Shown here piece by piece: positions 1-63,001 of a DNA stretch of 64,000 nt. Source of the DNA: Bacteroidetes bacterium UBA6221 (GTDB taxonomy: Bacteria > Bacteroidota > Bacteroidia > Chitinophagales > Chitinophagaceae); contig DISB01000016.1 of NCBI GenBank assembly GCA_002421685.1, forward strand, positions 378,549-442,548. Direction: 5' to 3'. Positions within the stretch are counted from its first letter, which is position 1. Each line of letters begins with the position of its first letter. The position numbers and the translations under genes are program-made. Below the pieces are notes generated by a model. The model saw nothing but the letters and a program-made list of their open reading frames with translations, did not search any database and was not told where the DNA came from.

Positions 1-21
1 TAATTATTAAATGACATGGTT

Positions 22-3000
22 TTAAGGTTTAGATTTAGGTGCAGCCTCCTCAAAGTCCCCAGGGTCTGTATTATCATAGCTTCCAAACTTCAAAAATCCC
101 TCAGCTTGGACATTTAAACCCAAACCAAGCTTCGACCCAATACTTAAACCATGCTTCCTTATTTTTGTTCTTGCATTAAAGTCTTTCTCATCGCTTATCT
201 GATAGGAAATCCCCGGTATTCCCACTGAAAATAATGTAGTTGTTTCTACTTTTCTTTCGAAACCGTTTTCATCAACATATTCTTTTCTCTCAAACCCTCC
301 TCCAAGAAATAGGTCCCCATAAAGTGTGGTAGTAAACAAACGGGAATGCCCATCCGTGTTCCTGGACATACCTTCAACGTTCACTGCTTCAGTTCCCAAA
401 TTAAACCCTAAAACTGGTGTTTCTTTATATGCTCCACCTACCGAAAGACTTTTAAACCCAAAATGGAGTGATGGGCCAGCAGCTATACGGGCTGAACCCT
501 GAATACCCATACCATAGTCTTCTGTTTGTGGTATGTATTTGTACTTTGATTCTGTCTTCGATGCAGTTTGAGATTGTGGTGTTTGGGCTGCTTGTTTTTG
601 AATATCGCGAGAAATCCTTAACTGAACTACACTAATTCCATAATAAGCCGCTTCTGCCTTATCAGAAATAAACTCTAAACCTTCTAAATCTTTACCATCT
701 ATCACTCTATTCTCAGCAAAAGCATATGTACTGTTCCATGGATAAGACGCAGCTAAAGGATCAACACTCCAGAACCTTGCAATCCTGGTATCGTATTCCC
801 TGAATTTGTACTGGTAATGTACATTATACTTGCCCAGGTCTGCAGACTTTGATTTGTATATATCCTGCTCAGCCCTTTGAGTGTTATAGCCATATTTACC
901 GGGGTTGTCGTTATTCAGTATACGGCCAGGCATCTTCATGCCAAAAGGGTAATAATCGCTGACATCGGCCAGGTTGGGCTGCCAGTAGTCATACAAAGTG
1001 TCGCCGGAATTGGCCAGGTGCCCGCTTTTTCGGTCCTGTAGAGATACCAGCACATTACCGAGATGGTCCGTAATATGGAAGTGTTTCACACCTATTTTAC
1101 GGCCTGTGTAGCGTTCACCACTATACATATTGCCCCAGGGCTCGGATGCACCGGGGTATGTAAATACCAGGTCACCCAATCCCCTGCTATACCAGGGAAT
1201 ACGGGTAGTCAGTGCCCGATGTGGAGGCACATCTGGGTCATGGTGATAAGTATTCATTATACTGTCTGCAAGCCCATAGTTTTTCACGGCAAGTTTATCA
1301 GAGCCATAAATATGGTGCTCCGCCAGCATCAACGTATCTTCAGCCAGGGGCACATAACCGGGGCCATAAGCCGTGAGTTGGCCAAGCGTGCTATGTTGCA
1401 CAATTGCTTCAGCATAAGCAATGGGGTCTATACCTTCGGTATTGCAAATAGCTTTATCCAGTGTTGCAGCCGGGTCAGACGCATTGTTTACAAAATCAGT
1501 CAACACAACTCCTTTTAAGGCATTGTACAGTATAGTCAATTGTTCCAGCAATGTAACGTTATTATTGAGCAATGTAGGGCCATTAATCCACTGGTTGAAG
1601 AAGTCGAACACAGGGCCGGGGTGATTAGTATTGTACAGCGCGTTCAGAATCGCCTCTTCGAACACGGTAAACGGCCCTATGCTGTTAGGTGTAGGAGTCC
1701 TGAGGTTAGGTGATGAAAAAATAACAGGGTCAAATACAACCGCGTTCAGGAAATTCGCCGACATATTTTTGGGAGGCGGTTCATTATTAACAATTTGCAG
1801 TATCCTGTTTATGGCTTGTATTTCCTGGCCAGGCATCTGGCTTTCAATAGATGCAACATATGTTGCCATGTTAGTTGAATACGCCCCGCCAAGTCCTACA
1901 TCAGTCCACAAGTCCTGAAGTTCTGTAGGGCCCATTGTTTTAAAATAATGTTCAAATAGTTTCATGCGTTCACCTGAATAATCGAATATCTGATCCAGGA
2001 AAGGCATGAGGTTGCTATTCATCAGAGCAGCGGCAAACAGGTGCTCTGAGCTTTGCCCTACAGTCATATTCATGTCGAAAACCGCCATGTCATCCAGGTA
2101 ATCAACCGTTGCGAACAGCAGCCTGTGGAATACATCATTATCGTGCTGCATGTAGAAACCAGCGCCATAAGAGCCGGTAATATTAACCGCCCATGCATTT
2201 TCATTGGCTATTGCCAGGTCAATAAAGTTGGTGGCGAAGCTGCCATATATGTCTACGTTATCCAGGATGAACTGTATAAAATCCGGTTCGCCGTACAAAC
2301 CTTCATTGGCTTTTTTGATATACATGCATGGTGAAAGGTTGGTCTTTATATTGTAAGCAGTAAGGAGATTCCCTGAAGCATCGTACACATAATACTCGCC
2401 TTTATTTACAATCAGTTCCGCGCTTACAGTATCTATCACGTCTTTGCGCACCCTGTTGCCCAATCCGTCGTAATCATAATGTATGATAGTATTGGTAACA
2501 GTGTCTACGATATCGGTAATCTTGCCCAGGTGGTTCCATGAAACTTTCTGATTACCATAGTAATTACGTACCATATTCCCGGTATTGTCATATTCGTAAT
2601 TGATACTGTTAGCAGGTGTGTAAGGCTCCTGTTCCAGGTCGTGCGGAGCAGAAGTGTACCCGGCAATATTTTCATCAACTATATTCAGCCTGTTGGTACC
2701 CGATTCATAAGTATAGGTGAGACTATCCATATGATAGCTATAGTTATCATACCTGTTTAGTTCGGTTATATTACCGAGGGCATCATAATTATAGGTGTTT
2801 TTGAAAATATTGGACGGACTTGCAACTGACAAAAGGTCTTCGTCTACTTCAGCATATGCGGCTAACTTCAACCGCTGAACCTGGTCGTAACGGTAGTCGC
2901 GCTGGAGATTACCTACGGTATTCAACGATAGCGTTTGCCTGGGGATGTTGCCATTGTACATGCTCTTATTACCTTCGGGCAAGTACGTAGCAGCCACTGT

Positions 3001-6000
3001 GTTATCAATCGGCCTGTAATCATTATTATAATAATTAAGCGCCATGGCCATAACATCCCTTGCATAACTCAGGTCTCCGGGCAGGCCGTTTTGGCCCATA
3101 TCTTTGTCGGGCCTTAAAATGTCGCCGTTTACGGCTTTCAACCATCCCTGTATAGTGTACGCATAGTCGAGGCTTTGCAACTGGTCGTCACCCAGCTTCA
3201 GGTTTGCCAGCGGGCCGTGCTTATAGTAAGTATATTCCGCATCACGGTTCCATATCATACCGTCGTTACTGGTATATACTTCTTTTACGCGGTTATCAGC
3301 ATCGTAAACATATTTATGATAGAACTGGTCTGCCCCGCCCCTGTTATAGGTAAGCATATTTACCTTGCCGCTCACCTGGTCATAATCATAGTCTACACGT
3401 TTGTATTTCTGTTTAATGCCAATCAGCCTGCTGGAACTATATGTTACTGTTTTAACATTGCCCTGCATATCGTAACTGTAATAAATGCCAAAGTACGGCT
3501 CCACAAAAGGTGTCCAGAGATCGGTACTTTTAGATTCGTAGTATGTAATGGCTGATACCCTGCCCAGCAGGTTTTCCTGCCTGCTCAATGTATAACCACT
3601 CTGAACACTCAAGTCAAGCGGCTCCTCGTCATAGTAAGTGCGCACAACTTCTTCTCTGTTTTGATTGCGTATATATACCAGCATGTCGTATGCGGAATAT
3701 TCAGTTGCATTGGTAATATAAGGGCAACCGGAACTGCAATCGATTTCCACCTGGCCGGTCTCCACTACCCTGCCCTGGTTGTCGTATAGAGTATAAGAGT
3801 ATTTGTCGTCCACCTGTTGCTTGCTATTCTGGGAGAACACTACCCTACCGGCCCTGTCATAATAGAACCTGGTGATACCTCCGTCCGGTGTTTCCTGGGA
3901 AACGGGTTTGTTCGAGGAATTATAATGATATACCGTCTCTTTTTCAACAGCAAAGGGATTGCTGCCGGTAGGAGGCGGCACAGTCTTAACAAGGTTACCT
4001 GCCAGGTCATGATAATATCTCATTATATGGTTCTTCTGCGCCTGGGTACAAAGCCTCAGAGAGTCGTTGGCATTGTTTACCAGGAACGAAAGCATATCAT
4101 CAGTTATAGCATTTGTTGTGGAGTCATAATACTGCAGGTACCTTATTTTCCCTGCATGAATTGCATCCTGCAACATCCAGTATTCGCAGTCTATCTTATC
4201 CAGGCAATGGTCCAGGCCGGGCTGTGTATGCAGAATCACATTTTCCACTTTGCGCCCGTAGCCAACAACGAAATCAGCATAACCACGACATTCAAACGCA
4301 ACGGAGCTGATAGAAGGGAAGTGCATGTAAGCCGTAAACATGTAAATGCTATCAACACCGGGACCTATTTTTATTGAGTCGAGATCCAGCATGTGGATAT
4401 CAAAAATCGGATTTTCAGGCGGTGCCAGGTATACATTGTACATCACGTTATTATTATCGAAGTACCGGTACCAATGTACACCATTCGCTTTCCTGAATAC
4501 GGTAAGTGATGTGTCAGAATTATATACTGCAAGGTCGTCTTCTTCCAGGAACAGTTGGTCTGTACTTAAAACACTTTGTACACCTGTGAGAATTGTATTT
4601 TCAAGTAAGGTCTGGCCCCAATGCCCGCTTTGCGCACCATTATACACATAAAGGTCGGTTTTGCGTTTTGAGCAATTCGCATCCTTATAGCTTAATGTAT
4701 TACCTGCATAAGCGGTAATTCTTTGCTTAAGGTTTGAAGTGCTGATTGAATCGATGATGGCGTCTCCCGTAATAGCAGTAAGGCCACTGATATAATTAAG
4801 ATAATCCTGCTTATCCGAAGTAGCATAATCCGCGCTCCTGAACACCGCTATGTCCGGCGAAGTAAATGAACCTACACATTGCTGGGTATAAGTTGACAAT
4901 CCCTCCACCATGTCTGCATGCTGTTTTGGTGTGGAGTAGCTACCGCTGAAAGCATACATATTATAAGCGTATTGCTTGTTATTAATGTAAACCGTAACAG
5001 CGTTAGAGCTGTATGGCGTCATATATGTGGACAGCGATGTGCCGGGGGAACAGCTTGTTCTATCGAATACTGTAAGAGGCTTATCGGACAAATAAGTGAA
5101 ATTACCGGGAGCTACAAGGCTTGCAATAAAGTTCTTATATGCCAATAATGAATTATCAGGAACCGTGCTGAGGTCGATACCAAATTTGGTTTGACCATTT
5201 CCATATAAAATTCTTGATTCAATGATATTGCGTGTTGTATAACCTTTGATAGCCTGTATAAAGGTGGCTGTATCTGTGGTACATGTCACTTCTATAGTGG
5301 CAAAATGGTTCTTCAGTTCCGTAAGATCGGTAACCGCGCAACCTGCCATTAATGCATTATAATCAGCATAGCTGTGATTTTTGCGGAATTTGTAATTCAA
5401 GTAATTGGTTATAGTTGTTTGGTATAACGGATGATTAAAAGCATCATCATAACCATAGGTAGCTTTGTCAGATTTGAAATCGTCAATAGCGTTCTTTATA
5501 TCTATGCATGTAATGGCGCCGGCTATAGATTCGTCTGAAACGGGTTCCATTATATTAATGCCATTGCTCCACACATAATACCTGTTAGTAGTACCGCCAC
5601 CATTTATATACATATCCACCACTGCCGAACTTCTTGCCACATAACCAATATACGCTGCTTCGTTATCTTCGTTAATACATGATACAGCATCGGTTTGTAC
5701 AGATGAAGCGCCATCGAGATAAGGCGAAGAACTGTACTTCTTTTTAATATATAACTTAACAGTATCACTACTGCTTGCAGAATATATTTTCAGCTTTATG
5801 TATTTCTTTACTACAATATTTGTAGGGTTGCCCGGCTCAGGATACCGGATGGTATCTATAAATCCTTTGACAAATACTGAAGCAGAGGAAGAGATACCCA
5901 GTTCTGCCGCAATTTTATTTTCATACACATTAGTACTGCTAAGATTAAACGTATAAGCACTGCTACCCGTAAGTATGGCATTTTTAATGGCACTTTCTAT

Positions 6001-9000
6001 CTCTGTACGATTTAGCAAATCTTTTATTCCGGTATATATATCCGCCTTGGCGCAAACAAAAGGCACTTCTTTTTCACTTGCAAAATCATAAGTAGTATAG
6101 CCAAACAAGAACGGATGACAGAGGTCGTTTAATGATAAGTTAGCACCCGATGGATTCGTGATTGCATTTATAACCACCTGGGGGGTAAGGGCAGCAAAGC
6201 CATTGGAAATACAATATGCATTAATCTCAGAACGAATGTCATTCAATTTAGAACCAACGGTGGTACAGTTATTCAGCTTATCCATTACGAAGTCCATCAT
6301 TGCACCCACTTCTGCAACTCTCCAACTGTCTGCAGAGTCCTGTATTTGAACTGGTGGAGGATTGAGGCTTGAATGATCAGAGTTAGGGTCGTTTACATCT
6401 GTATATACGTCTTTTATCCATTGAGGCACATCGGCAGAATCTAACAAAGGGTATAATACTGATGTGTCCTGTATATTAGGCGGATAAGGATCAAATACGG
6501 GTGTGCCGGTAAGCCATATATAAGCATCCTCACCATCCCAGCCTATACGGGGGCAAAAACAATTATACTTTGCATACCCTGCATCCCAAAAGGCTTCTTT
6601 TTCGTCATAAATAGATGCGATATACTTTGACCTATTCATGAGGTAGAATGACTTCAACAACTCATAATACGCCTGTTTAACATTATCATCAATAAATGTC
6701 ATATTGAGTATTTGCTGTGCATACAAAAATTTCGCTACAGCCACTTCTTCTTCCATATTGCCTGCATGGGCGTAAGCCAACTCTATTGCGATAGAATCGA
6801 TACGTTTATTATAATTTACAAAACGAATCAACTTATCTTTAATAAGCGGCTTATCAGTTGATGATGCATTTTTATAAACCGGGTCGTTAGCTAATATAGA
6901 ATCGAGGATAAAACGATTATTATACTCCGCTTGCAGAAAGGTTGTGTAACCTCTCAGCTCATTCTCATACTCCTCCAGGCTACCGTCACAAAGCAACAGC
7001 TTACAATATTCAGGGTGCAAAGGCAGTAATGCTTCAGCAATGGTATCATTAAATATGTAAATAAATGTATCTAAAGACAAACACTCAAGGTTAGTGTACT
7101 GCACACCATTTTTCCAAACAGAAGCTGGCAGGTGTACTAAGCCAGATGTGTCCTGGTATGGATGAACATAATAAAGTGGATAATCCGGAAAGGTTCTATA
7201 ACTACAGGAGTTGTTTTGAGGATAACCTTGAACACCAAAATCCATAGCACGGAATATTGAATTACTATCAGCTTTATCCGCCCGAAAAGACCTACTACTT
7301 GGACCATAACTATTCATAGTTGAATTAGCCCAACCACCATTGGCCATATATTCTGCTACACTGCCATACATGCCATACTTACCGCCGGGAGATAGGTCGT
7401 CCATCATTTGCCTTTTTTTGGCGGCGCAAGGATTAGTAGTATCTGCATACTTCAAATCTTTACAAGGAAATTCTGCCGCCACTACGGTCTTCCTTACAAA
7501 ATAATGTTCATCATTATAACAATCCGGCTCGTTATCCTTTACAAACTGGCGGACAGTATTATTTATCTCCGGACGTGAAAAACTCAACGTTTTACTTGCC
7601 AGGTATTTCCCTTTCTGCAGCCAGCTTTGTACAGCCGCCCCGGACAAGTCCATAGCTACATTGCTGTTTAACACGCTATCACTACCTATAACACCTGATG
7701 TGGCCGGTATCTGCGGTGCTCCACAATCGTCCGTTGCAGAATATATATAGTATGCTTTCGCCCACAGGTACTTACCATTGCACCCTGTTCTATACGCAGG
7801 AATATTTACTTTATATTGCAGGCTATATATACCATTTTTTTCACCATAAAAAGGGCTTTCAATAAAAAGAGAGTTGGAGGTTTTATTCTGATCAGAAAAA
7901 GCGATAGAGAAACAATCAGCAAAACCTGTATCGTAATCAGGCAATACATCAATAGGTGTTTCCAGGGTATCTGGTATGCCGATAAGGCCTGATGCTATAG
8001 TCTGGCCTTTAGGATTATGAATTGTAAAGCTTGTCTGGCCATTCGGGTCTGTTATTACCTGCTTCGGATAATGTACAAAATTACCGGCTTCACCACTAAA
8101 CAGGCTATTCAACTCAGACTGAGTCGCCCTCACATATTCGTAACGTGTGCCATGGCCGTTCCACAGTTGGTTTTCATAACCAGCACCACCTTGCCACAGC
8201 AACAAGTTGTCAGGAGAATAAACACTTTGAATAAAGGGATAGCCTTTTGCATCAGGTACGAACCGCTCGTAAATACCTTTATCAGGATTGAGTGGTGAAT
8301 AATACTTTTTAGCCCATGCCGAATTGGACAGCGGTGCTATTGAATCAGGCGTGGAGCAGGAGAGGTTATCAAAATCATTACTTCTGTACGGATTACCAGT
8401 GGTTTCGTGCAAAGTCACATCAGGGTTATAATATAAAGCACCTTGCTTAATTGGTATGGGTAAGGTCTGAATAGAAGCCCTACCTTCCTTATCGTATATC
8501 TTGTCAACGGCTAGAACATAATCAATATCGGTATTTATTTTTGTTTGAGATTGCCTGTCCCTGAGCGTACCGTCGAAATAATTGATGACATGTTTATATT
8601 TACCCTCTTCAGCAAAGTTGATTGTGTATTGCCAGTTAAGACTATCGCTGTTATGCGGGGTTGAAATAAAATAGGCATGGCATTGATGACTCAGGTTTAC
8701 CGTACCGGCATCCTGTAAATTCCAACCACCGTAAATTGCTGTTTTATAATCGTTAGAATAATCAGGCCTTATAGCCCTAACCCTATATATTATCGCTCCA
8801 TGCTCATATATTAACGGGATGTCAAAAGAATTTTCAGTAAGCCTTACCCGTGTGCTATTTTTTTTAAAATCGTATGCTACATTACTGCTAGCGCCAAAGG
8901 AATATCCGGGAGTTCCGGCAACTCCATTGTTATAGACATTATAAGTATAATCATCTATATATAACCATTCCAGTTCAAACTCAATTGGTTTAAAATTATT

Positions 9001-9678
9001 GGTAGTAACGCTATTTGTACAACCCAACGAGGAATTGGTAGATGTGCCCCAGGTAACATTCAGTGTTTTATTGTTAGTCACCGTGCCCCAGGGATATATA
9101 GTAAAGGGCACATTATCATATCGCTCCACAACCACGGATGACATTATATAAAAATTCTTGGGCAGGTCGGATCTTAATATCATATTATTTGAAGTGTCCT
9201 TTATACTGGTCACTTCTACAAGAAGCTTTTGGTAACCTGAAAACTTGTAGACATTCGCATCTACATAAGACACTCCGGAATCCGGATCATACGAAACCTG
9301 CAGGGTAATATTTTTTGACGTCGGAGTTCCCGGGCTTGCATAGTTAAAACACCAAATCGTCAGCTCAATATTATACAAATATGGCGATGTAACTACAACA
9401 TTCGTATCATGGTTCACACCAACGAAAATGTAATTTTGTACGCTTTTGGTGAAAAAATCAGTCAAGCTGGGATTGCTTACTAACAAATCGTATTCATTGC
9501 TTTTAGTAACAGGCAATGAGTCGCTATAAGCATTATTAGGCTTGTAACTTCCGTTATCTTTAATATCATAGCTATAAAGCCTTTCGCTTTTTTCATCAGG
9601 CAGATACTGAAAAACCTGTGCAACTGATGACAAGGAAATCATGATTCCAATGCAGAGAAATAATATTCGGTTATACAT
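22..9678 (-). CDS. Giant (3218 aa) secreted RHS/YD-repeat polymorphic-toxin-type protein. It has a signal peptide, an ~1880-aa non-YD N-terminal region, a YD-repeat shell with RHS-associated core, and a 216-aa variable C-terminal tip.
   Basis: Uninterrupted 9.66-kb ORF. The N-terminus MYNRILFLCIGIMISLSSVAQ looks like a Sec signal peptide. YD-type repeats are readable from YYHDLAGNLVKTV onward (YYDRAGRVVFSQ, YTLYDNQGRVVETG, YDYDQVSGKVNMLTY, YVYDADNRVKEVY, YNYDALGNITEL, YEYDNTGNMV, YDYDGLGNRVRK, YVYDASGNLL). RHS core hallmarks are present: ITDHLGNV, YYPFGM, FREYDTRIARFWSVDPL...IDGKDLEGLE. Confidence 0.92.
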   Translation of the reverse strand: MYNRILFLCIGIMISLSSVAQVFQYLPDEKSERLYSYDIKDNGSYKPNNAYSDSLPVTKSNEYDLLVSNPSLTDFFTKSVQNYIFVGVNHDTNVVVTSPYLYNIELTIWCFNYASPGTPTSKNITLQVSYDPDSGVSYVDANVYKFSGYQKLLVEVTSIKDTSNNMILRSDLPKNFYIMSSVVVERYDNVPFTIYPWGTVTNNKTLNVTWGTSTNSSLGCTNSVTTNNFKPIEFELEWLYIDDYTYNVYNNGVAGTPGYSFGASSNVAYDFKKNSTRVRLTENSFDIPLIYEHGAIIYRVRAIRPDYSNDYKTAIYGGWNLQDAGTVNLSHQCHAYFISTPHNSDSLNWQYTINFAEEGKYKHVINYFDGTLRDRQSQTKINTDIDYVLAVDKIYDKEGRASIQTLPIPIKQGALYYNPDVTLHETTGNPYRSNDFDNLSCSTPDSIAPLSNSAWAKKYYSPLNPDKGIYERFVPDAKGYPFIQSVYSPDNLLLWQGGAGYENQLWNGHGTRYEYVRATQSELNSLFSGEAGNFVHYPKQVITDPNGQTSFTIHNPKGQTIASGLIGIPDTLETPIDVLPDYDTGFADCFSIAFSDQNKTSNSLFIESPFYGEKNGIYSLQYKVNIPAYRTGCNGKYLWAKAYYIYSATDDCGAPQIPATSGVIGSDSVLNSNVAMDLSGAAVQSWLQKGKYLASKTLSFSRPEINNTVRQFVKDNEPDCYNDEHYFVRKTVVAAEFPCKDLKYADTTNPCAAKKRQMMDDLSPGGKYGMYGSVAEYMANGGWANSTMNSYGPSSRSFRADKADSNSIFRAMDFGVQGYPQNNSCSYRTFPDYPLYYVHPYQDTSGLVHLPASVWKNGVQYTNLECLSLDTFIYIFNDTIAEALLPLHPEYCKLLLCDGSLEEYENELRGYTTFLQAEYNNRFILDSILANDPVYKNASSTDKPLIKDKLIRFVNYNKRIDSIAIELAYAHAGNMEEEVAVAKFLYAQQILNMTFIDDNVKQAYYELLKSFYLMNRSKYIASIYDEKEAFWDAGYAKYNCFCPRIGWDGEDAYIWLTGTPVFDPYPPNIQDTSVLYPLLDSADVPQWIKDVYTDVNDPNSDHSSLNPPPVQIQDSADSWRVAEVGAMMDFVMDKLNNCTTVGSKLNDIRSEINAYCISNGFAALTPQVVINAITNPSGANLSLNDLCHPFLFGYTTYDFASEKEVPFVCAKADIYTGIKDLLNRTEIESAIKNAILTGSSAYTFNLSSTNVYENKIAAELGISSSASVFVKGFIDTIRYPEPGNPTNIVVKKYIKLKIYSASSSDTVKLYIKKKYSSSPYLDGASSVQTDAVSCINEDNEAAYIGYVARSSAVVDMYINGGGTTNRYYVWSNGINIMEPVSDESIAGAITCIDIKNAIDDFKSDKATYGYDDAFNHPLYQTTITNYLNYKFRKNHSYADYNALMAGCAVTDLTELKNHFATIEVTCTTDTATFIQAIKGYTTRNIIESRILYGNGQTKFGIDLSTVPDNSLLAYKNFIASLVAPGNFTYLSDKPLTVFDRTSCSPGTSLSTYMTPYSSNAVTVYINNKQYAYNMYAFSGSYSTPKQHADMVEGLSTYTQQCVGSFTSPDIAVFRSADYATSDKQDYLNYISGLTAITGDAIIDSISTSNLKQRITAYAGNTLSYKDANCSKRKTDLYVYNGAQSGHWGQTLLENTILTGVQSVLSTDQLFLEEDDLAVYNSDTSLTVFRKANGVHWYRYFDNNNVMYNVYLAPPENPIFDIHMLDLDSIKIGPGVDSIYMFTAYMHFPSISSVAFECRGYADFVVGYGRKVENVILHTQPGLDHCLDKIDCEYWMLQDAIHAGKIRYLQYYDSTTNAITDDMLSFLVNNANDSLRLCTQAQKNHIMRYYHDLAGNLVKTVPPPTGSNPFAVEKETVYHYNSSNKPVSQETPDGGITRFYYDRAGRVVFSQNSKQQVDDKYSYTLYDNQGRVVETGQVEIDCSSGCPYITNATEYSAYDMLVYIRNQNREEVVRTYYDEEPLDLSVQSGYTLSRQENLLGRVSAITYYESKSTDLWTPFVEPYFGIYYSYDMQGNVKTVTYSSSRLIGIKQKYKRVDYDYDQVSGKVNMLTYNRGGADQFYHKYVYDADNRVKEVYTSNDGMIWNRDAEYTYYKHGPLANLKLGDDQLQSLDYAYTIQGWLKAVNGDILRPDKDMGQNGLPGDLSYARDVMAMALNYYNNDYRPIDNTVAATYLPEGNKSMYNGNIPRQTLSLNTVGNLQRDYRYDQVQRLKLAAYAEVDEDLLSVASPSNIFKNTYNYDALGNITELNRYDNYSYHMDSLTYTYESGTNRLNIVDENIAGYTSAPHDLEQEPYTPANSINYEYDNTGNMVRNYYGNQKVSWNHLGKITDIVDTVTNTIIHYDYDGLGNRVRKDVIDTVSAELIVNKGEYYVYDASGNLLTAYNIKTNLSPCMYIKKANEGLYGEPDFIQFILDNVDIYGSFATNFIDLAIANENAWAVNITGSYGAGFYMQHDNDVFHRLLFATVDYLDDMAVFDMNMTVGQSSEHLFAAALMNSNLMPFLDQIFDYSGERMKLFEHYFKTMGPTELQDLWTDVGLGGAYSTNMATYVASIESQMPGQEIQAINRILQIVNNEPPPKNMSANFLNAVVFDPVIFSSPNLRTPTPNSIGPFTVFEEAILNALYNTNHPGPVFDFFNQWINGPTLLNNNVTLLEQLTILYNALKGVVLTDFVNNASDPAATLDKAICNTEGIDPIAYAEAIVQHSTLGQLTAYGPGYVPLAEDTLMLAEHHIYGSDKLAVKNYGLADSIMNTYHHDPDVPPHRALTTRIPWYSRGLGDLVFTYPGASEPWGNMYSGERYTGRKIGVKHFHITDHLGNVLVSLQDRKSGHLANSGDTLYDYWQPNLADVSDYYPFGMKMPGRILNNDNPGKYGYNTQRAEQDIYKSKSADLGKYNVHYQYKFREYDTRIARFWSVDPLAASYPWNSTYAFAENRVIDGKDLEGLEFISDKAEAAYYGISVVQLRISRDIQKQAAQTPQSQTASKTESKYKYIPQTEDYGMGIQGSARIAAGPSLHFGFKSLSVGGAYKETPVLGFNLGTEAVNVEGMSRNTDGHSRLFTTTLYGDLFLGGGFERKEYVDENGFERKVETTTLFSVGIPGISYQISDEKDFNARTKIRKHGLSIGSKLGLGLNVQAEGFLKFGSYDNTDPGDFEEAAPKSKP
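25..672 (-). other. Variable C-terminal tip (216 aa) downstream of the RHS core. It is Gly-rich and beta-strand-like, with no recognisable enzymatic toxin motif.
   Basis: The sequence FISDKAEAAYYG...GLSIGSKLGLGLNVQAEGFLKFGSYDNTDPGDFEEAAPKSKP follows DLEGLE. Sampled lines of coding DNA here are about 37-38% GC, against about 48-58% in sampled lines of the adjacent core. Confidence 0.7.
673..4020 (-). other. YD-repeat / RHS-core coding portion of the 3218-aa gene (about aa 1887-3002), ending in a DPxGL-like DLEGLE motif
   Basis: The first clear YD repeat (YYHDLAGNLVKTV) is encoded at ~3980-4018. The last core residues (DGKDLEGLE) are encoded at 673-699. I mapped both by reverse-complementing the nucleotide sequence. 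Confidence 0.8.
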
Positions 9679-9690
9679 ATTATGTCAGCT

Positions 9691-10404
9691 TTATTCGGTT
9701 ATTGTTAGTAGGTGATATCTTGCATATTTATGAGCTAATGAAAATTTTTCGTTTTCATGTTTAAAAAACCTGTCAGTCAAGATTTTTGACTTGTCAAATT
9801 GGTATTTAAAATCAGTAATACGGTAGATGCGGCTATAGCCAGCATTTTCTCCAAATTTATTTTTCTCCTCAACTTCAAACTCTATGCTTTTGATTAATAA
9901 AGTTTGTTTTTCAATTTCAACTGTAAACCCGGCGAAGTCGTGATTTCTGAAAACCACATCTATTTTGTGGTTCCCGTTTGGCAATATCTTAGAGCTGAAC
10001 GTGCCATGCTGCGCAATAATTGAATCGGATATATCTATAATATTGGGTTGAATTATATCGGAGGAAGATAAACCGAGCTTTTCCTTAAGTACTTCAATCG
10101 TCGAAACGGTTATTGTCCGGGATGGCATGTCTACTTTGCAGTAGTATTTCTTATTTACTATTGATATGGACGATGCATTACTGTCTATATAACCATCTGC
10201 ATTTTTGTAATACTGCCCGACTATGCTATCCTCAATCTTATTTTCAACTACATTTTTCAGGAACACTTTATAATTATATGCAAGAACAGGCTTGTCATTC
10301 GATTTTTTGATTTTATCGAATAAACTACTGGTAAATGTCTGTGCAGTCATATACTGAACACCCGACATAGCGATTAAACTGAGCAATAAGAGGTATTTTT
10401 TCAT
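9691..10404 (-). CDS. Secreted 237-aa protein of unknown function, encoded between the two giant genes
   Basis: ORF with signal-peptide-like N-terminus MKKYLLLLSLIAMSGVQYMTAQ. It starts 7 nt after the upstream stop and ends 12 nt before the RHS gene start. Confidence 0.8.
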   Translation of the reverse strand: MKKYLLLLSLIAMSGVQYMTAQTFTSSLFDKIKKSNDKPVLAYNYKVFLKNVVENKIEDSIVGQYYKNADGYIDSNASSISIVNKKYYCKVDMPSRTITVSTIEVLKEKLGLSSSDIIQPNIIDISDSIIAQHGTFSSKILPNGNHKIDVVFRNHDFAGFTVEIEKQTLLIKSIEFEVEEKNKFGENAGYSRIYRITDFKYQFDKSKILTDRFFKHENEKFSLAHKYARYHLLTITE

Positions 10405-10411
10405 GCTGTCA

Positions 10412-13400
10412 CTATTTTTTCTGGTTCGAGCGCCTGCTTTCGCTTATAGTTACAATGCCCTGCTCTGTTTCTTTTTTCACCCTGATTAATAAGCCCTGCT
10501 GATCGTACTCATAAAAAGTTGAAAAATTATTCTCATCCTGCTCTGCAATCAATTTGAAAGAAGCCGGGTCATACACAAATGACTTTACAGTTGCATCTAT
10601 CGGAACAAATCGGATATCGTCAAAATAAGCTCCGGCCGGCAACCTGATAGCAACTCCTGTCCATACACCTGCCATATTTATTTCACATTCTGCCTTATAC
10701 CACCCATCTATGTTTCCTGTTTTTAACTGGAAAGGGTATTGATTACCTCCGAGTATCATTTTTGTATTCGAAGCTACTGTTGCCGCGCTGCCTGATGTCG
10801 CCTTCAGCCAAAGGCTTACAATATATTTCCTGGCCCCGTCCAACGAAAAGTTCTTCGTGTTTACCCAAGGTGTCGGCGAGTTATATCCGGCATCTTTTAT
10901 TTCGGGCGATATGCTCCTGACATTTATATCAAAATCCTGGTTGTTGCTGCAATACAATGAGTAGGTACCTGTATGACTTTCACTGGATGTAATAGTGTTA
11001 CCGGATGAGGCAGTGAGATTCAACCTCACATAGTCCTGCTTATAACGGGTAACAGTACTCTGCACGCTATTGAATGCCTTTGCAAAAGGAGTAAAGTAGT
11101 AATATGAGCCCTGGTATAGTCCGCGAAGGTATTTAGGCACCATAATATTATAATCCTCAAACCCTTCAAAACAGAAACCTTTTTGCCTTACATTAGAGCC
11201 TACGGCTACCGGCAATGATTTGTTATAGCCATACTGGGCACTTGAATATTTACCCGTAGCATCCACTTCTTCTATTGCATTACTAAAGACATCATACTTC
11301 AGAATCTTACTCTGTGCAATCCATTTTGATGTATTATCCGGTACGATTCCGTCAATTACGGTTCTGTTTGCCACCAGGTAGCTCCAGAATTCATTGCCAG
11401 AAATACTGTACGTACCATCCTCGCTAATATTACCTTGGGAATAGTCCCTGTTTGCATTGTAAGCGTAACTTTTAACAGGCCTGTAATTACCCTTATGGCC
11501 TAAAACATATCGGTTCATAATCTTCATATCCTTATCGGTAACCGACACAGGGTATATATACGGATTATAAACACCATACGTTATAAGTTGAGAGTCTCCG
11601 TAATCAGAACTATACGGAGCTGCCACGTCTGAGAACTCTGTTACCGAAAGGTTCAACACTTTACCGTATGCAGCATTAGCGTCAATAAGTCCGCTAACAC
11701 TTGTAGTATAAGGGTTAGATGTCAATGTAGCGGATTGTACATGCTGATCGAGGTTATTACGACGGCCTGAACGTAAAACTTTAACGAATACGTCATTTAC
11801 CTTGCTACCCGTCGTTAAGCCGCCAGGCCAGAGCACATTTCCGTTTGCATCTTTCAAAGCCCTTAATACCACCTGCCTGAATGGTTGTGTCTGAACATAA
11901 TCAACCGAATCAACAGTATCGCACTGCACCCTGTTACGTGGATATGGTTCATAATAAGAGTAGCAATAAAATCCCGGTGGTAAGAAAGGCTGTATAGACG
12001 GTGTATTATTGACCGGGTTATGGGCTTTCCAATTATCTTCATCGTCCACCACCCACGCTTTTACTTTGTGTGTAACACTATTTTCTGTATAGGTCAACAG
12101 TAGTTCGTCCCCCGGCGTAAACCTGTCCCTGTTAAGGAACAGCCGCCCGTAATAAGAATCATACAACTGGTGTCTTTCGATAACGAGTGAATCAGCCTTT
12201 TCTTCATAACCTATATTTGTATAAGCAGGCTGCATGCCCTCATATGCCCAGTATGCCGGGATATTTAGATTATAATTCCCCTTAAACTGGCTGCCTGAAC
12301 TATATTCGTTATTAGTACGGGTGAGCAATACCGCCCCTGTTTCGCTATCATACAGCAAATTTTCAGTCTTAATTTTTGCACCATGGTCATATGTTTCTAT
12401 AGAATTGAGTATACCATATTTCTGTATGATTTTAGTTGAAACCATTGACCTGAATATTGTTTTCTCCTCTTTATCAGGGAAAAAGGCAGTGGGTATAGGT
12501 ATAGGAACAAAAACGAACAAAACCACATTGACATTTATATCAACATTTCGACGGTACGCCCTTATATCCCTTTCCCTGCTGTCTATTGTGAAGTCCATTT
12601 CTTCTCCAAGTCTAATGGGCTGAACAGTATATCCTCCGGCAGTACCCCTTGTCCGTACTACTGCATTTACCTGGTTATCAAGCTTACCTTTACTATCAAT
12701 CTGATATTTGTAAGTCATACCCGACACTTTTTCCCTTTTAACATTAGAGCCGTCTGTATGAATGATATAATAACTTGTCTCTTTAGGTTTACCGTGCATG
12801 TCATTAAACTTCAGCACATACCCCTGCATGGCTTTTACTTCTTCGTACTTTTTTCGCAGTGTTTTGGTTTTAACAGGAGATGGGGCGTCTTTCTCCGTAT
12901 AATCTACCTCAATCGGGAACTCCTTGGCTGTGTAAAAGGTATGTTCTTCCTCAGACTGGGCAGAACGTGCGTTGCCAATGTGTATACTTCTGACTGTTAT
13001 CTTGCTATAGCCCACAACCGGCGGCGGGAAAAATGATTCTCCAAAAGGTTCTTCCTGGAAAAACTTTATAGCTGGTAATAGTCGCCCTGCGCTGCCTGTA
13101 TAGGGAACAGGAGCTTTGAACGGATTTTCATCACCACCTATCATCGGCTCATAACTCGCAACACCGGTGCTGACATTTTTATCCCATTTACTGTCCCATT
13201 CTGTATAGTCATATGTTTTGCCATAGCTGGCATCTGCACCACCGGCAAGTACACTCCAATTATCATTAAGTGTCAGTTCTTTAACCCTGAGCCCACCGCC
13301 ATCTTTTGTGAGCCCGGGCACATTTAGCCTCACCCACGATTTAGACGTAATAATGCTCCTGGCTTTTTTGTCTTTTTCTACAAATCTGACTATAGGATTC

Positions 13401-16400
13401 TTAGCTATTGTCAATAGCTCTGTGGCCGAGGCTTTTAATCCCTGCAATATTTGTATTGCGCCACCACCTCCACTATAACCGGGATAGATAATATGTGGCA
13501 GATAATGCCGGCCAATATTGAGTCCGTATATAGTAGCAGGGTGTAACAGATGATTGCTATTGCTTCCCGGACGCTCGCGTTTCAATCTTACGTAACCATA
13601 ATTATTGTCGTTGGAACATATGCCTACTTCTTCTATTTCCGCATATCCCTTTATGTGCTCGTACTTACCTTTGCCTGTTATATCCAGGTTAAAGCTATAA
13701 TATAATGTGTTTGTATTTTCAAGGTAATTGTCTTTCATAGACAGTGCCGAATTTTCACGGTCTATTCTTCTTTTGAAATAGACGTAGTTATTTACCTTGC
13801 TTACACTTTCATATAAATTCGCTTTTTGTTCAAAGTTTGCAGTATTACCCACGCCCTCAACTTTAAACATTTGCATACTCCGCTTGTTCTGAACATATGA
13901 ATAATCATCACTTTCATACTCTACGTGTATTTTACCTCCTGAGGGCAACTTTATATCAGTGAGCGACCACGCTCCCACATTAGCATCAGCACTACCATCC
14001 TGATTGACATATGGATACTCAAAACTGCCTAACCCTGAAAATAAAGGTTGATAATTACCCCACCTGTCTTTTAAAGCAAAATTGTATTGCGGATTTAACC
14101 CATTATATGAAAAGACGTATGGGCTGAGTAGATTCTTATTTGAACTTCCATATTTTATATAAATTCTTTCAAGAGTAAGCTTCCCGCCATCATAAGTATT
14201 CGCCTCGTTGCTATTAGGTGAAAAGGAGTTGGGTATCCCCTTACATAACCTGTAAGAATACCTGAAAATAACAGTTTTAATCGGTACTGCTGAATTACCG
14301 GACTCGTTTATATACCGGTCATGTTTATTGTACAACTTGATTGAGTCAAGTTTATACGAGCGTTGGTTTTCGGAACTTGACCCGGCATACATACCTCCTA
14401 CATCTACTGTACTACCTGATGGTAATATAGCGGCGGTCACACCCTTGCCATCTTCACGTTCAGAAGTATAGAACTCAGCGACATAGTTTTTTGTTTCGAT
14501 AGAGCGTATATGCCATATCTGCTTTGATCCAGCGATATAGCTCCCCTTATCATCATCTCCATCAGACCAAAAACCGGGATTGTATTGTGCAGAATCGGAA
14601 TTATACGGCGCACGCCACCTGTAATCATCGTGAGCACGTGTGTAATTTATCTTTGTAAAACTTCCCAGGTCATCATCAGTGGGCCCATCTCCCAATACAT
14701 CTACATAATCTTTAGAGAGTACTGAAGTCAGCAGGTAGCTATATGCGTATGCGGGTTTACCGGTATGAGAATAAAAATTCTCCTTACCCTTACTATTATT
14801 TTTCGTATCGTCTCCGTTATCAATCTTTACTAAACCATTAGCAAGGTTAGCGTTGCCTGATGACACATTGAAAGACACCTCGCGGGTAACATGGTTTAAA
14901 GCCGGAATACCGTAGATATACCGGCGTCCGTCCGGCAATGTCTGGGTAAACTCGGTAAGATGATGCGCCTTTGCCTGGTTAGCATTTGTACCATATCTAT
15001 TTTCTTCGGTAACAGCAGGATTGGAAAAAGGCTGTGACACTCCGTCACTAAAGCTGATGATTTTTTTATGCTGTGCAACGTCGTTCACATCAGCTTCGGC
15101 TGAAGTGATGAAAGAGAGTAAATTGGCCCTGGTTGTCCTATCTGTTGCACTACCTGTATATACATAACTATTCCCAAACTTTCCGGGCATTGAGCCGGCC
15201 CCTGCTCTCCCCTTTGTATACAAAGTATTTTCGTTTTCACCCAAGTAAAGTGCCTTCTCGTTAAACAGGCTGGTTGTCAGTTGTTGATTATTATAGGTCA
15301 ATTCACCTGCTTGCTTAAAATACACCTTTTCATATAAGCTACCGGTATCCTTTGCACGAAAAGGTAACATCTTCCAGGGGCCGGATTTATTCTCATTATC
15401 ATAAAAAGTCAAGTCAGTACCCAGCTCAAACAAGTTACCCAGACCGGCTTCTATTTTAACATCAAAACTTGTGCTTTTAGGAGGGTTAACAAACGGGTCG
15501 AAAACGGTGCCAATATCATTTCGGTATGGGCGGAACATGCCGCCTGTGCCCTGTCCGCTTATTGAATACACGTCGTATGTCATTGATGAAAGGGGGAGAT
15601 TTTTCAATGTATTATTGTAATACCCGTCATTATCACGGCTAAAATCCATAATACCTTCTTTAGGCGCATTTTCAGAATATAAGTACCCATACGCCTGCCT
15701 TGAACCATCTTGCCCGTACTTCAGCGTAGACTTCATAATACTTAAGTGTACATTAGGGAAAGCATAGAATATCTCTCCACCAAAACGTGTTTGAAACTGG
15801 AATGTTTTTTGCACACTTTCATTAGTAATCACCGGCACATAGTTCTGTAAACCTATAGGTATTGAAGAACCAAAAGACGCGCCTGCAATGCTCTGAGAGT
15901 GATACTTCCTCTCTACCTTATTAGTCTTCTCATTAAATCTTTCTCTCTTATATGATTGCGAGGCGCTGGCATTTATTCCGAATGACAAGTCTTTCAAACC
16001 CGTTCTTGAGTTGAAGCCTGTTCCTCCTGAAATTCCAATACCGGCTCCTACATCTTCGGTAATGGTCATAGGAATGCTCAACCCTGCATTCACGTCAATA
16101 TCAGCGCCCGACTGAGACCCGAGTCCGATATCAACACCGGCACTAGCAACAGGAGTAGATACAGTAACACCTGCATTAACACCCACACTCACCCCCTTGT
16201 AATTATTGAATGCGATATAGTTGCCTACACCAATAGATAAATTAATACCGTATTGGTTGGGATTGAAGCCAAACAACTCTGCAGAAACATTTGCACCAAC
16301 TGCTATGCGCCAATCAGTTTCTTCATTAATATTCAGTGTTTTTTCGACAGTTTCTCCATTATAATCATCTGGTAGGCCCCTTACAGAACGATTTATTTCT

Positions 16401-16693: not shown

Positions 16694-16700
16694 ACGGCTG

Positions 16701-17303
16701 CTATTTTATCACTAACGTGGGTAAATTTTTTAAAGTTTTTTTTGAATAAGTCGCTTGTATATATGGATTGTCATTGTACCGGTCATTAAAAACCAGTTTC
16801 AGGCCAGACTGTAATTCCGGCAGTTGAAAGCCCACCACAATGGTATTATATGGTGCAAGACCATAGTTATCTTCATAATGATATGTGGCAGGAAAAAACT
16901 GCTGTTCATCGCAGAAAAGCGATATGTCATTTGCTGCTAATGACTGGTAATACATTATCATTTCACCTGCTTTTTGCTTCTTCTGAATATCGTCAATCAC
17001 ACTTCCGCCAAGGTCATTTTTGGATACATTAATGATGAAAAAAATGTGCCCCTCTAATTCATTAATCCTGCTCTTTAATAGCTCTGTATTTGTATCTTGT
17101 AGTTGTTCACTATATTCTCTGCATGCCATGTAGTCAGCTGTAGCCAGCTGTATGATATACTCCGTATTTCCACTAATGATAGTCTGCCGGGTTGAGTTAT
17201 TGCTCTCCATGTATCTGAGATATTTTGCCGGCTGCAAATCACCACTTGTATTGCAGCTGAACAAATACATACATAAAAGCAGTAGTTTAATTACCTTTTG
17301 CAT
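16701..17303 (-). CDS. Lipoprotein (200 aa), unknown function
   Basis: Lipobox-like N-terminus MQKVIKLLLLCMYLFSC. The start overlaps the upstream Skp-like gene by 17 nt, and the stop lies 7 nt before the 2093-aa gene start. Confidence 0.8.
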   Translation of the reverse strand: MQKVIKLLLLCMYLFSCNTSGDLQPAKYLRYMESNNSTRQTIISGNTEYIIQLATADYMACREYSEQLQDTNTELLKSRINELEGHIFFIINVSKNDLGGSVIDDIQKKQKAGEMIMYYQSLAANDISLFCDEQQFFPATYHYEDNYGLAPYNTIVVGFQLPELQSGLKLVFNDRYNDNPYIQATYSKKTLKNLPTLVIK

Positions 17304-18932: not shown

Positions 18933-18955
18933 AAGATAATTTTTTAGGTCATTAA

Positions 18956-33310: not shown

Positions 33311-33403
33311 GGGGAGTATTGAGGCCTCTTGTACACAGTAAGCAGTCTAATTCATTAGACTAAGGCATGTTTTCTTTTATATTTGCCTACAAAGAATACC
33401 AAT

Positions 33404-62847: not shown

Positions 62848-63001
62848 GGCTAAAATATTACTGTGCAATATGGGCGACGCAAGTACGGCGGGTTACCACA
62901 CTTGTAATATTAGTAACAGTTCATAAGGGCAATAGTTGACAGCAATTAACACTCAAGCGTAAAAAATTAACGCAAAAACAAAAGTAATATATTTTTATGT
63001 A

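What the first reader, a model, noticed from the sequence alone, without database searches (positions are those of the whole stretch)
25..672. The RHS C-terminal tip looks like a Gly-rich beta/pore-type domain rather than an enzyme toxin
After the DPxGL-like core end ([10 protein letters not shown]) there are 216 aa with no nuclease, deaminase, ADP-ribosyltransferase or peptidase motif that I can recognise. A polar linker (QKQAAQTPQSQTASKTESKYKY) is followed by Gly-rich stretches of alternating hydrophobic and polar residues. Examples are GIQGSARIAAGPSLHFGFKSLSVGGAYKETPVLGFNLGTEAVNV, LFTTTLYGDLFLGGGF, TLFSVGIPGISYQIS and GLSIGSKLGLGLNVQAEGFLKFG. These resemble amphipathic beta-hairpins of membrane-inserting beta domains. 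The payload could therefore be a pore-former or a membrane anchor.
Basis: partly seen in the sequence, partly recalled or inferred. Interest (0 to 1): 0.65.

Follow-up and report, generated by a model that had tools for sequence, protein, structure and literature searches.

The report
Orphan RHS toxin tip with membrane immunity
The last 216 residues of a giant RHS protein from a Chitinophagaceae-like bacterium are a swappable antibacterial toxin cassette of a rare, uncharacterised family. It is always paired with a tiny two-helix membrane immunity protein, which suggests it attacks the target cell's membrane, but this is not proven.

Summary
The RHS core ends at residue 3001 (DLEGL). The 216-residue tip matches nothing in Pfam, NCBIfam or PDB. 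Gly is 12% in the tip against 6.1% in the rest of the protein. Its beta-type (period-2) amphipathicity exceeds column shuffles (z=3.45) and every other 156-aa stretch of the protein.

The tip is a polymorphic toxin slot. In 50 related RHS loci, similarity stops exactly at the core end. The 72%-identical ortholog carries a HExxH-type tip instead.

Only three other occurrences of this tip family were found among about 1.8 billion representative proteins and the fetched contigs. Each one, like the window's copy, is followed within 36 bases or less by an 87-89-aa protein with two transmembrane segments. That protein co-diverges with the tip and also occurs as toxin-less orphan copies, so it is a cognate immunity protein. 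It lies just outside the window.

A polytopic membrane immunity protein favours a membrane-acting toxin, as with Tse5/Tsi5. However, ColM-type enzymes also have such immunity proteins. Structure prediction failed (pLDDT 32-36), so "beta pore-former" remains plausible but unproven (about 0.45). "Membrane anchor" is rejected. This is a new toxin/immunity family within a well-known kind of system.

The parts
22..9678 (-). RHS/YD-repeat polymorphic toxin gene, 3218 aa
   Evidence: ORF. TIGR03696 Rhs core matches aa 2909-3001 and RHS/YD repeats match weakly. Fifty homologous RHS loci were found in Bacteroidota genomes.
9616..9678 (-). Predicted Sec signal peptide (MYNRILFLCIGIMISLSSVAQ)
   Evidence: Read directly from the translation. 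This is inference from the n/h/c-region pattern; no signal-peptide predictor was run.
676..954 (-). RHS-associated core end (aa 2909-3001), with the two Asp positions of the RHS aspartyl protease: D2973 in SVDP and D2997 in DLEGL, 24 residues apart
   Evidence: TIGR03696 aligns over 1-76/76. In Tse5 the corresponding residues are D1141 and D1164 and the toxin starts at residue 1169 (PMC10684867). Cleavage after L3001 is inferred by that analogy.
25..672 (-).
   Evidence: Homology of all 50 related loci ends at query residue about 403-406, which is protein residue about 3002-3005.
538..672 (-). Lineage-specific polar linker or pre-toxin segment (tip residues 1-45)
   Evidence: It is not conserved between the two tip subfamilies in the four-sequence alignment A3.
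70..537 (-). Conserved toxin domain (tip residues 46-201; 156 aa, 16.9 kDa, 15% Gly, no Cys or Trp)
   Evidence: This region matched P0001 (E=3e-12, 33% identity). In alignment A3, 41 columns are invariant, including 12 of 24 Gly.
25..69 (-). Non-conserved charged tail (TDPGDFEEAAPKSKP)
   Evidence: It is absent from the P0001/L060 subfamily, whose proteins end at ...GGFDNK.
1..21 (-). First 21 bases of the 35-base spacer between the RHS stop codon and the immunity gene. The immunity gene (89 aa, two transmembrane segments) starts 15 bases beyond the left edge of the window (locus L001 19693-19962).
   Evidence: The flanking DNA was recovered via the exact-protein contig lookup. No terminator lies between the two genes. 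All family members have two hydrophobic 19-residue segments with Kyte-Doolittle (KD) hydropathy above 1.6.
9691..21769 (-). Six co-directional upstream genes, all with N-terminal signal sequences. In gene order from the upstream end towards the RHS gene: a 937-aa protein, a 380-aa protein, a 168-aa Skp/OmpH-like protein, a 200-aa lipoprotein-like protein, a 2093-aa YD-like protein and a 237-aa LolA3-like protein.
   Evidence: ORFs are. OmpH matches at E=5.5e-8. LolA3_fam matches at E=8e-11 over its full length but below the curated cut-off. The link to delivery of the RHS protein is inferred from gene order only.

Best explanation
Window 25..672 encodes the exchangeable toxin cassette (CT) of a Sec-exported RHS polymorphic toxin from a Chitinophagaceae-like Bacteroidota bacterium.

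By analogy with solved RHS proteins, the tip is probably cut off after L3001 by the RHS aspartyl protease (D2973/D2997) and held, largely unfolded, inside the YD-repeat shell until delivery.

Its conserved 156-residue domain founds a rare, previously undescribed family. The family is Gly-rich and predicted to be all-beta and strongly amphipathic.

The producer is protected by a cognate 89-aa protein with two transmembrane segments. It is encoded 35 bases downstream, just outside the window.

Because the immunity protein is almost entirely membrane-embedded, the toxin most likely acts in or at the target's cytoplasmic membrane. The most probable mechanism is insertion of amphipathic Gly-rich segments to form ion-conducting pores that collapse the membrane potential. 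The immunity protein would intercept the toxin within the bilayer.

Shown: the domain boundary, the polymorphism of the slot, toxin-immunity co-occurrence and co-divergence, and the membrane nature of the immunity protein.
Inferred: autoproteolysis, toxicity, the membrane target and pore formation.

My probabilities: toxin/immunity cassette about 0.9; membrane-acting about 0.65; pore-former about 0.45.
For: 1. Boundary. TIGR03696 ends at aa 3001. All 50 related RHS loci lose similarity at query residue about 403-406.

2. Polymorphism. Orthologs carry unrelated tips. L004 (72% identity in the core) has HEVGHTLGLEH, L014 has a GxSxG lipase-like motif, and L005 has a hydrophobic Gly-rich tip. Each has a different downstream small gene.

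3. GC content falls from 0.46-0.49 in the core to 0.39 in the tip and 0.29-0.32 in the immunity gene. This is typical of a horizontally exchanged cassette.

4. Rarity. An exhaustive HMMER scan of 1.84 billion representative proteins found one true relative, P0001. Profile searches added none.

5. Toxin-immunity linkage. In all four independent tip occurrences, a homolog of the two-transmembrane-segment protein follows within 36 bases or less. These are the window/L001, L055, L002-3 and L060-62. Tip and immunity protein fall into the same two subfamilies. Tips are 81% or about 31% identical, and immunity proteins are 72% or about 41% identical.

6. In L003 the cassette sits as an orphan module behind another RHS tip/immunity pair. 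In L060 it is fused to a truncated RHS C-terminal fragment.

7. Toxin-less orphan immunity homologs occur in unrelated contexts (L054, L056-59, L063).

8. All immunity family members have two segments with KD hydropathy above 1.6, flanking a conserved 38-residue loop.

9. Precedent. For the Rhs protein Tse5, a membrane target was hypothesised from the same two clues, namely no predicted enzyme activity and a two-TM inner-membrane immunity protein. It was then shown to form depolarising pores (PMC9637101; PMC10684867).

10. The amphipathic beta signal is significant. Gly is the best-conserved residue class, with 12 of 24 invariant against 41 of 156 overall.
Against: - There is no direct evidence of toxicity or of membrane activity.
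- The tip has no stretch hydrophobic enough for a transmembrane helix (maximum 19-residue KD 0.77). It is therefore unlike Tse5-CT or colicin-type pore formers.
- No outer-membrane or pore-forming-toxin family matched.
- The AlphaFold2 models are unusable (pLDDT 35.6 and 31.9), and Foldseek gave TM-scores of about 0.1.
- Amphipathic beta strands are also normal in soluble beta-sandwich proteins.
- Polytopic membrane immunity proteins are documented for enzymes too. Examples are the ColM-family lipid II-degrading toxins (PmiA with 4 TMH, BmiA with 3 TMH) and a peptidoglycan endopeptidase (PMC5821083).
- Acidic residues are conserved above average (E 5/11, D 3/7) and one His is invariant. This would also suit a catalytic site.
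- The family has only two subfamilies, so conservation analysis is weak.
Confidence: 0.5

Rival explanations
1. The tip is an enzyme that destroys a membrane-bound substrate at the cytoplasmic membrane, such as lipid II, undecaprenyl phosphate or phospholipid. The membrane immunity protein shields that substrate or binds the enzyme at the bilayer surface.
For: ColM-family lipid II-degrading toxins are protected by 3-4-TMH immunity proteins, and a peptidoglycan endopeptidase bacteriocin by 2- or 4-TMH proteins (PMC5821083). The tip has conserved acidic residues and an invariant R-x-H-G. It is not hydrophobic overall (GRAVY hydropathy index -0.48).
Against: There is no similarity to ColM, phospholipase, phosphatase or any other enzyme family, even at E<=10. 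The very high and conserved Gly content and the long amphipathic strands are unusual for a compact enzyme.
Confidence: 0.17
2. The tip is a divergent cytoplasm-acting enzyme, for example an R-S-E-type ADP-ribosyltransferase or an RNase. Its Gly-rich amphipathic parts serve only to carry it across the target's inner membrane.
For: All four family members keep R62 ... T144-x-T146 ... [Q/E]189-A-E191 in that order. From my own knowledge, the spacing (82 and 43 residues) resembles the R / S-T-S / [QE]-x-E signature of ADP-ribosylating toxins. A glycine-zipper motif is needed for membrane translocation of the T6SS DNase Tde1 (PMC10240207, abstract).
Against: No ART, RNase or other enzyme profile matched. 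Short motifs of this kind are expected by chance roughly once per sequence. No aromatic residue precedes the Arg, and Gly follows the Glu. Immunity proteins of cytosolic enzyme toxins are normally soluble, whereas here only a 38-residue loop lies outside the bilayer.
Confidence: 0.13
3. The tip is not a toxin. It is a beta-barrel-type membrane anchor, or a structural plug, that fixes the RHS protein in the producer's outer membrane.
For: The amphipathic Gly-rich strands and the ...GFLKFG segment resemble a terminal strand of an outer-membrane protein. The RHS protein has a Sec signal peptide, and its neighbours are Skp-like and LolA-like chaperone genes.
Against: The position is hypervariable among orthologs, which carry peptidase-like and lipase-like tips. 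The tip travels with a co-diverging small membrane protein, and that protein also occurs as orphan cassettes and orphan copies. No outer-membrane-protein family matched. The aromatic strand is not C-terminal in the window's protein.
Confidence: 0.03

Closest known systems
Tse5 (RhsP1, PA2684) / Tsi5 of Pseudomonas aeruginosa: an Rhs protein whose C-terminal fragment forms depolarising pores
   Same: Both have an RHS shell followed by a roughly 16-17 kDa C-terminal toxin with no predicted enzyme activity. The two Asp residues of the C-terminal autoprotease are present in both. The immunity protein has two predicted transmembrane regions (PMC9637101; PMC10684867).
   Different: There is no detectable sequence similarity; no PDB chain matched. 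Tse5-CT has predicted transmembrane and amphipathic helices, whereas this tip has no helix-length hydrophobic segment and is predicted beta-rich. Tse5 is a PAAR-like T6SS effector. This protein has a Sec signal peptide and no T6SS genes nearby.
Pore-forming colicins and the CdiA-CT(EC93)/CdiI pair, with small polytopic inner-membrane immunity proteins (from my own knowledge)
   Same: A polymorphic antibacterial toxin is paired with a small immunity protein of 2-4 transmembrane helices, encoded immediately downstream.
   Different: Those toxins are alpha-helical and have a hydrophobic hairpin. There is no sequence relationship, and the delivery scaffold is different.
ColM-family toxins with PmiA/BmiA immunity proteins
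   Same: Polymorphic toxins whose immunity proteins are polytopic membrane proteins (PMC5821083).
   Different: The ColM domain (PF14859) did not match the tip. ColM toxins are enzymes with a defined catalytic motif.
Glycine-zipper membrane toxins of T7SS LXG effectors (TelE, EsxX)
   Same: Gly-rich C-terminal toxin domains that depolarise membranes and have membrane immunity proteins (abstracts of PMC10434224 and PMC12744356).
   Different: In those toxins the Gly zipper lies in a hydrophobic helix. Here GxxxGxxxG (GLSIGSKLG) occurs in the window's subfamily only and is not in register in the P0001 subfamily. The surrounding sequence is amphipathic rather than hydrophobic.

Membership tests
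RHS polymorphic toxin C-terminal toxin (CT) / immunity cassette | Lies directly after the RHS-associated core, which ends in the PxxxxDPxGL-type motif | tested here: met
   TIGR03696 matches 1-76/76 on aa 2909-3001 (E=3.8e-4, below the curated cut-off). The motif variant is DLEGL, and homologs show DPDG, DIDGL, DLDGM and ELEGL at the same place.
RHS polymorphic toxin C-terminal toxin (CT) / immunity cassette | The tip is hypervariable among otherwise homologous RHS proteins | tested here: met
   In all 50 loci the similarity stops at query residue about 403-406. The tips of L004-L016 are mutually unrelated.
RHS polymorphic toxin C-terminal toxin (CT) / immunity cassette | A cognate immunity gene lies immediately downstream and co-varies with the tip | tested here: met
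   An 87-89-aa homolog follows all four tip occurrences and falls into the same two subfamilies as the tips. Orphan copies also exist.
RHS polymorphic toxin C-terminal toxin (CT) / immunity cassette | Autoproteolytic release of the tip, toxicity of the tip, and neutralisation by the immunity protein | not testable with these tools
   Only the two Asp positions (D2973, D2997) can be seen. This needs expression and mass spectrometry.
Tse5-CT-like helical pore-forming toxin | Sequence homology to Tse5-CT, and hydrophobic transmembrane helices | tested here: not met
   No PDB chain matched at E<=10 apart from chance hits. The maximum 19-residue KD hydropathy is 0.77.
Tse5-CT-like helical pore-forming toxin | A two-transmembrane-helix inner-membrane immunity protein | tested here: met
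   All family members have two segments with KD above 1.6. Inner-membrane location itself is inferred.
Outer-membrane beta-barrel (OMP_b-brl / OmpA-like / autotransporter) domain | A profile match to an outer-membrane-protein family, and a C-terminal aromatic beta-signal at the very end of the protein | tested here: not met
   No Pfam or NCBIfam hit. FLKFG is followed by 20 more residues in the window's protein and by GFDNK in the other subfamily.
Outer-membrane beta-barrel (OMP_b-brl / OmpA-like / autotransporter) domain | A confident barrel-shaped structure model | tested here: inconclusive
   AlphaFold2 gave pLDDT 35.6 and 31.9. The models are all-beta hairpins but unreliable. Foldseek gave no hit with E<=0.001.
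R-S-E ADP-ribosyltransferase toxins | The Arg / Ser-Thr-Ser / [QE]-x-E triad within an ART fold | tested here: inconclusive
   R62, T144-x-T146 and [QE]189-A-E191 are conserved in all four sequences. No ART profile or structure match was found. The fold could not be tested.
T9SS cargo C-terminal sorting domain | A match to PF18962 / TIGR04183 / TIGR04131 at the C-terminus | tested here: not met
   The tip gave no hit. Two other proteins in the same window do hit PF18962.

The most novel reading that the evidence does not exclude
The tip is the first beta-structured (hairpin or barrel type) pore-forming antibacterial toxin carried inside an RHS cocoon. It would be neutralised within the bilayer by a two-helix immunity protein. 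It would be delivered by a Sec-dependent, T6SS- and T9SS-CTD-independent Bacteroidota apparatus encoded by the upstream operon (Skp-like, LolA3-like and a second 2093-aa YD protein).
Probability: 0.2. Interest if true: 0.7.

Novelty: new member of a known kind. Interest (0 to 1): 0.42.

Why it matters
RHS and other polymorphic toxins are a main source of new antibacterial activities. Few membrane-depolarising payloads are known, and the characterised ones (Tse5-CT, colicins, the glycine-zipper LXG toxins) are described as helical.

A beta-rich, Gly-rich payload with an 89-residue, almost wholly membrane-embedded immunity protein would be a compact system for two questions. One is how an unfolded toxin leaves an RHS shell and enters a bilayer. 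The other is how immunity can work inside the membrane.

The locus also points to an undescribed, Sec-dependent route for RHS toxin export in Chitinophagaceae.

If the tip instead proves to be an ordinary enzyme, it is simply one more uncharacterised polymorphic toxin domain.

Tried and rejected
- Word-indexed homology search with the tip alone found nothing. The profile of tip plus P0001 found only P0001.
- Two metagenome-contig scans with tip alignments found no confirmed locus.
- tblastn of the tip against the plasmid and phage collections found no match.
- Pfam, NCBIfam and PDB searches of the tip, of the four-member alignment, of the whole RHS protein and of the 937-aa and 2093-aa neighbours gave nothing informative. 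The best chance hits were a juvenile-hormone-binding protein at E=0.15, AfpX13 at E=0.35 and Ribosomal_L11_N at E=0.1.
- AlphaFold2 was run on the single sequence and on the two-sequence alignment. pLDDT was 35.6 and 31.9, so the models were not used. Foldseek on the better model gave TM-scores of about 0.1 and hot-dog-fold noise, and was discarded.
- P0002 (E=1.5e-4) is a repeat protein that matches a 29-residue low-complexity stretch six times. It was rejected as spurious.
- hhalign of the tip profile against the Gly-rich tips of L006 and L010 gave probability of about 0.1% or less, so they are unrelated.
- The terminator-like hairpin inside the tip coding region (L001 19550-19579) was judged to be chance.
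- The "membrane anchor" reading and the T9SS C-terminal-domain reading were both rejected (see the membership test).
Full report
**1. What is at the coordinates**

Window 22..9678 (minus strand) is one ORF of 3218 aa. It starts with a Sec-type signal sequence, MYNRILFLCIGIMISLSSVAQ.

The NCBIfam RHS-associated core model TIGR03696 aligns end to end with aa 2909-3001. It ends in ...[43 protein letters not shown]. D2973 and D2997 are 24 residues apart. They sit at the positions of the two catalytic Asp residues of the RHS C-terminal autoprotease. In Tse5 those are D1141 and D1164, and the toxin starts at residue 1169 (PMC10684867). Cleavage after L3001 is therefore inferred, not shown.

**2. Is the pattern more than chance?**

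- Gly is 12.0% in the tip against 6.1% in the other 3002 residues (P=8e-4).
- Gly is 15.4% in the conserved domain (P=3e-5).
- No other 216-aa window of the protein reaches 26 Gly.
- The period-2 (beta) hydrophobic moment of the family profile is 3.45 sd above column shuffles (1 in 2000 reach it).
- The single-sequence value exceeds every 156-aa window of the rest of this beta-rich protein.
- The tip has no Cys, no Trp and no helix-length hydrophobic stretch (maximum 19-residue KD hydropathy 0.77).

**3. No known family**

Pfam, NCBIfam, PDB sequence searches and PDB profile searches gave only chance-level hits. tblastn against plasmids and phages found nothing.

AlphaFold2 on the single sequence and on the two-sequence alignment gave all-beta hairpin models, but at pLDDT 35.6 and 31.9. 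Foldseek on the better model gave TM-scores of about 0.1. The fold is therefore unknown.

**4. The slot is polymorphic**

I scanned one genome per GTDB species with aa 2600-3218. The scan returned 50 RHS loci, mostly from Bacteroidota (Chitinophagaceae, Saprospiraceae, Flavobacteriales and Bacteroidales MAGs). In every one, similarity ends at query residue about 403-406, which is the core end.

| Locus | Relation to the window's RHS | Tip | Downstream gene |
|---|---|---|---|
| L004 (Flavipsychrobacter MAG) | closest ortholog, 72% identity over the core | 211 aa with HEVGHTLGLEH | 125-aa lipoprotein-like protein |
| L005 | related RHS | hydrophobic, Gly-rich | 143-aa protein with two hydrophobic segments |
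| L014 | related RHS | AHSQGG lipase-like motif | not examined |

None of the 50 loci contains this tip or its downstream gene.

GC content falls from 0.46-0.49 at the core end to 0.39 in the tip and 0.29-0.32 in the next gene. It then returns to 0.47-0.53.

**5. The family is tiny**

An exhaustive HMMER scan of 1.84 billion representative proteins found one true relative, P0001. It is 180 aa, E=3.3e-12, 33% identical, and covers tip residues 46-201. The second hit, P0002, is a repeat-protein artefact. Word-indexed searches and metagenome scans added nothing.

**6. The decisive context lies just outside the window**

The exact RHS protein occurs on a 211-kb contig (L001). There, 35 bases after the stop codon and 15 bases beyond the window's left edge, an 89-aa ORF follows. 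It has two strongly hydrophobic segments (residues about 2-27 and 66-88). These flank a 38-residue loop, EVSNNYDDYPYLKINLGLLTYYDKKVKEKDVPIKKIRN.

P0001 is likewise followed, 7 bases downstream, by an 87-aa protein that is 41% identical to it over the loop (E=5e-16).

A profile of these two proteins retrieved eight family members. Their contexts fall into two groups.

Tip-bearing loci:
- L055: an RHS end plus a tip 81% identical to the window's, followed by an immunity protein 72% identical.
- L060-62: a truncated RHS C-terminal fragment fused to a P0001-type tip, followed by its immunity protein and then another RHS fragment.
- L002/3: a P0001 cassette lying behind a complete RHS tip of another type and that tip's own 149-aa partner.

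Toxin-less immunity homologs: L054, L056-58, L059 and L063.

So all four independent tip occurrences have the small membrane protein next to them. Toxin and partner fall into the same two subfamilies, and orphan copies occur in other genomes. This is the signature of a polymorphic toxin and its cognate immunity protein.

**7. Anatomy of the tip** (alignment A3)

- Residues 1-45 are a lineage-specific polar linker.
- Residues 46-201 are the conserved domain (16.9 kDa). It has 41 invariant positions, 12 of them Gly. Half of all Gly are invariant, against 26% of positions overall.
- Glu (5/11) and Asp (3/7) are also conserved above average, and R-x-H-G is invariant.
- Residues 202-216 are a tail found only in the window's subfamily.
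- The size fits the roughly 15-16 kDa payloads of solved RHS shells, which are largely disordered inside the cavity (PMC10684867).

**8. Mechanism**

An immunity protein that is almost entirely membrane-embedded points to action in or at the cytoplasmic membrane. For Tse5 the same two clues were used: no predicted enzyme activity and a two-TM inner-membrane immunity protein. That led to the demonstration of depolarising, cation-selective pores (PMC9637101).

I therefore favour a membrane-inserting, depolarising toxin built from Gly-rich amphipathic beta segments.

The caveats are real:
- ColM-type lipid II-degrading enzymes have 3-4-TMH immunity proteins. [quoted passage not shown]
- A glycine-zipper motif can serve translocation rather than killing (PMC10240207, abstract).
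- The conserved R62 ... T144-x-T146 ... [QE]189-A-E191 pattern loosely recalls R-S-E ADP-ribosyltransferases. This is a lead from memory with no profile support.

My estimates:

| Claim | Probability |
|---|---|
| Toxin/immunity cassette | about 0.9 |
| Membrane-acting | about 0.65 |
| Pore-former | about 0.45 |
| Enzyme on a membrane-bound substrate | about 0.17 |
| Cytosolic enzyme | about 0.13 |
| Membrane anchor | about 0.03 |

**9. Delivery**

The RHS gene is the last of seven co-directional genes (window 22-21769). All seven products carry signal sequences. They include a Skp/OmpH-like chaperone, a LolA3-like protein (LolA3 of F. johnsoniae has no known role, PMC11885536), and a second giant YD-like protein of 2093 aa.

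No T6SS gene is present. The RHS protein lacks a T9SS C-terminal domain, although two T9SS cargo genes lie elsewhere in the window. The export route is unknown and I did not resolve it.

**10. Verdict**

"Not a recognisable enzyme, possibly membrane-acting" gains independent support from the immunity protein. "Beta pore" remains a hypothesis. "Membrane anchor" is rejected.
- As a system this is an ordinary RHS toxin/immunity cassette.
- As a domain it is a new, very rare toxin family with a new immunity family.

Noticed in passing
window 9691-21769 (-): Six genes upstream of and co-directional with the RHS gene all have signal sequences. They encode proteins of 937 aa, 380 aa, 168 aa (Skp/OmpH-like), 200 aa (lipoprotein-like), 2093 aa and 237 aa (LolA3-like). 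The 2093-aa protein starts ...GPSTPEVQSFEPVGTTDMVDMFSGDFTY and ends in a YD-like repeat. None has a PDB or Pfam match beyond the two chaperone-like hits. This may be an undescribed Sec-dependent export or delivery apparatus for RHS toxins in Chitinophagaceae.
   Followed up: partly
L063 434-6670: A truncated immunity homolog (P0010, 78 aa, lacking the first hydrophobic segment) sits just upstream of genes of 501, 1302 and more than 1092 aa. The 1302-aa protein resembles both ends of the window's 2093-aa protein (30% and 25% identity). A related operon therefore exists in another organism, with an orphan immunity gene beside it.
   Followed up: partly
L005 5200-6285 and L004 5220-6231: Orthologous RHS proteins carry other cassettes. 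L005 has a hydrophobic Gly-rich tip (GTFGSLLSGGTLAVGGSTATTIFAGLSLLASV) followed by a 143-aa protein with two hydrophobic segments. L004 has a HEVGHTLGLEH metallopeptidase-like tip followed by a 125-aa lipoprotein-like protein. The predicted location of the immunity protein seems to track the toxin type.
   Followed up: partly
L054 879-1148; L056/L057 10001-10264; L059 10001-10336: Toxin-less copies of the two-TM immunity protein lie among unrelated genes. In L054 the copy sits next to other small ORFs that could form an immunity-gene cluster. In L056-58 it lies beside a 93-aa multi-hydrophobic ORF. In L059 it follows glycosyltransferase genes.
   Followed up: partly
window 70-537 (-), tip residues 62, 144-146, 189-191: R62 ... 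T144-x-T146 ... [Q/E]189-A-E191 is conserved in all four tip sequences. The spacing is reminiscent of the R / S-T-S / [QE]-x-E signature of ADP-ribosylating toxins. No profile or structure search supports this.
   Followed up: partly
window 33383-35122 (+) and 37744-39789 (+): Two proteins have a C-terminal Por_Secre_tail (T9SS sorting) domain, so the organism has a type IX secretion system. The RHS protein shows no such domain.
   Followed up: no
L001 18800-20400 (window about 1-880 plus flank): GC content drops stepwise from 0.46-0.49 (RHS core end) to 0.39 (tip) and 0.29-0.32 (immunity gene and the 430-base spacer). It recovers to 0.47-0.53 in the flanking miaA-like gene.
   Followed up: yes
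window 58833-62868: A glycoside hydrolase family 15 / trehalase-like gene lies next to a fused trehalose-6-phosphate synthase/phosphatase gene on the opposite strand. This is ordinary housekeeping context.
   Followed up: no
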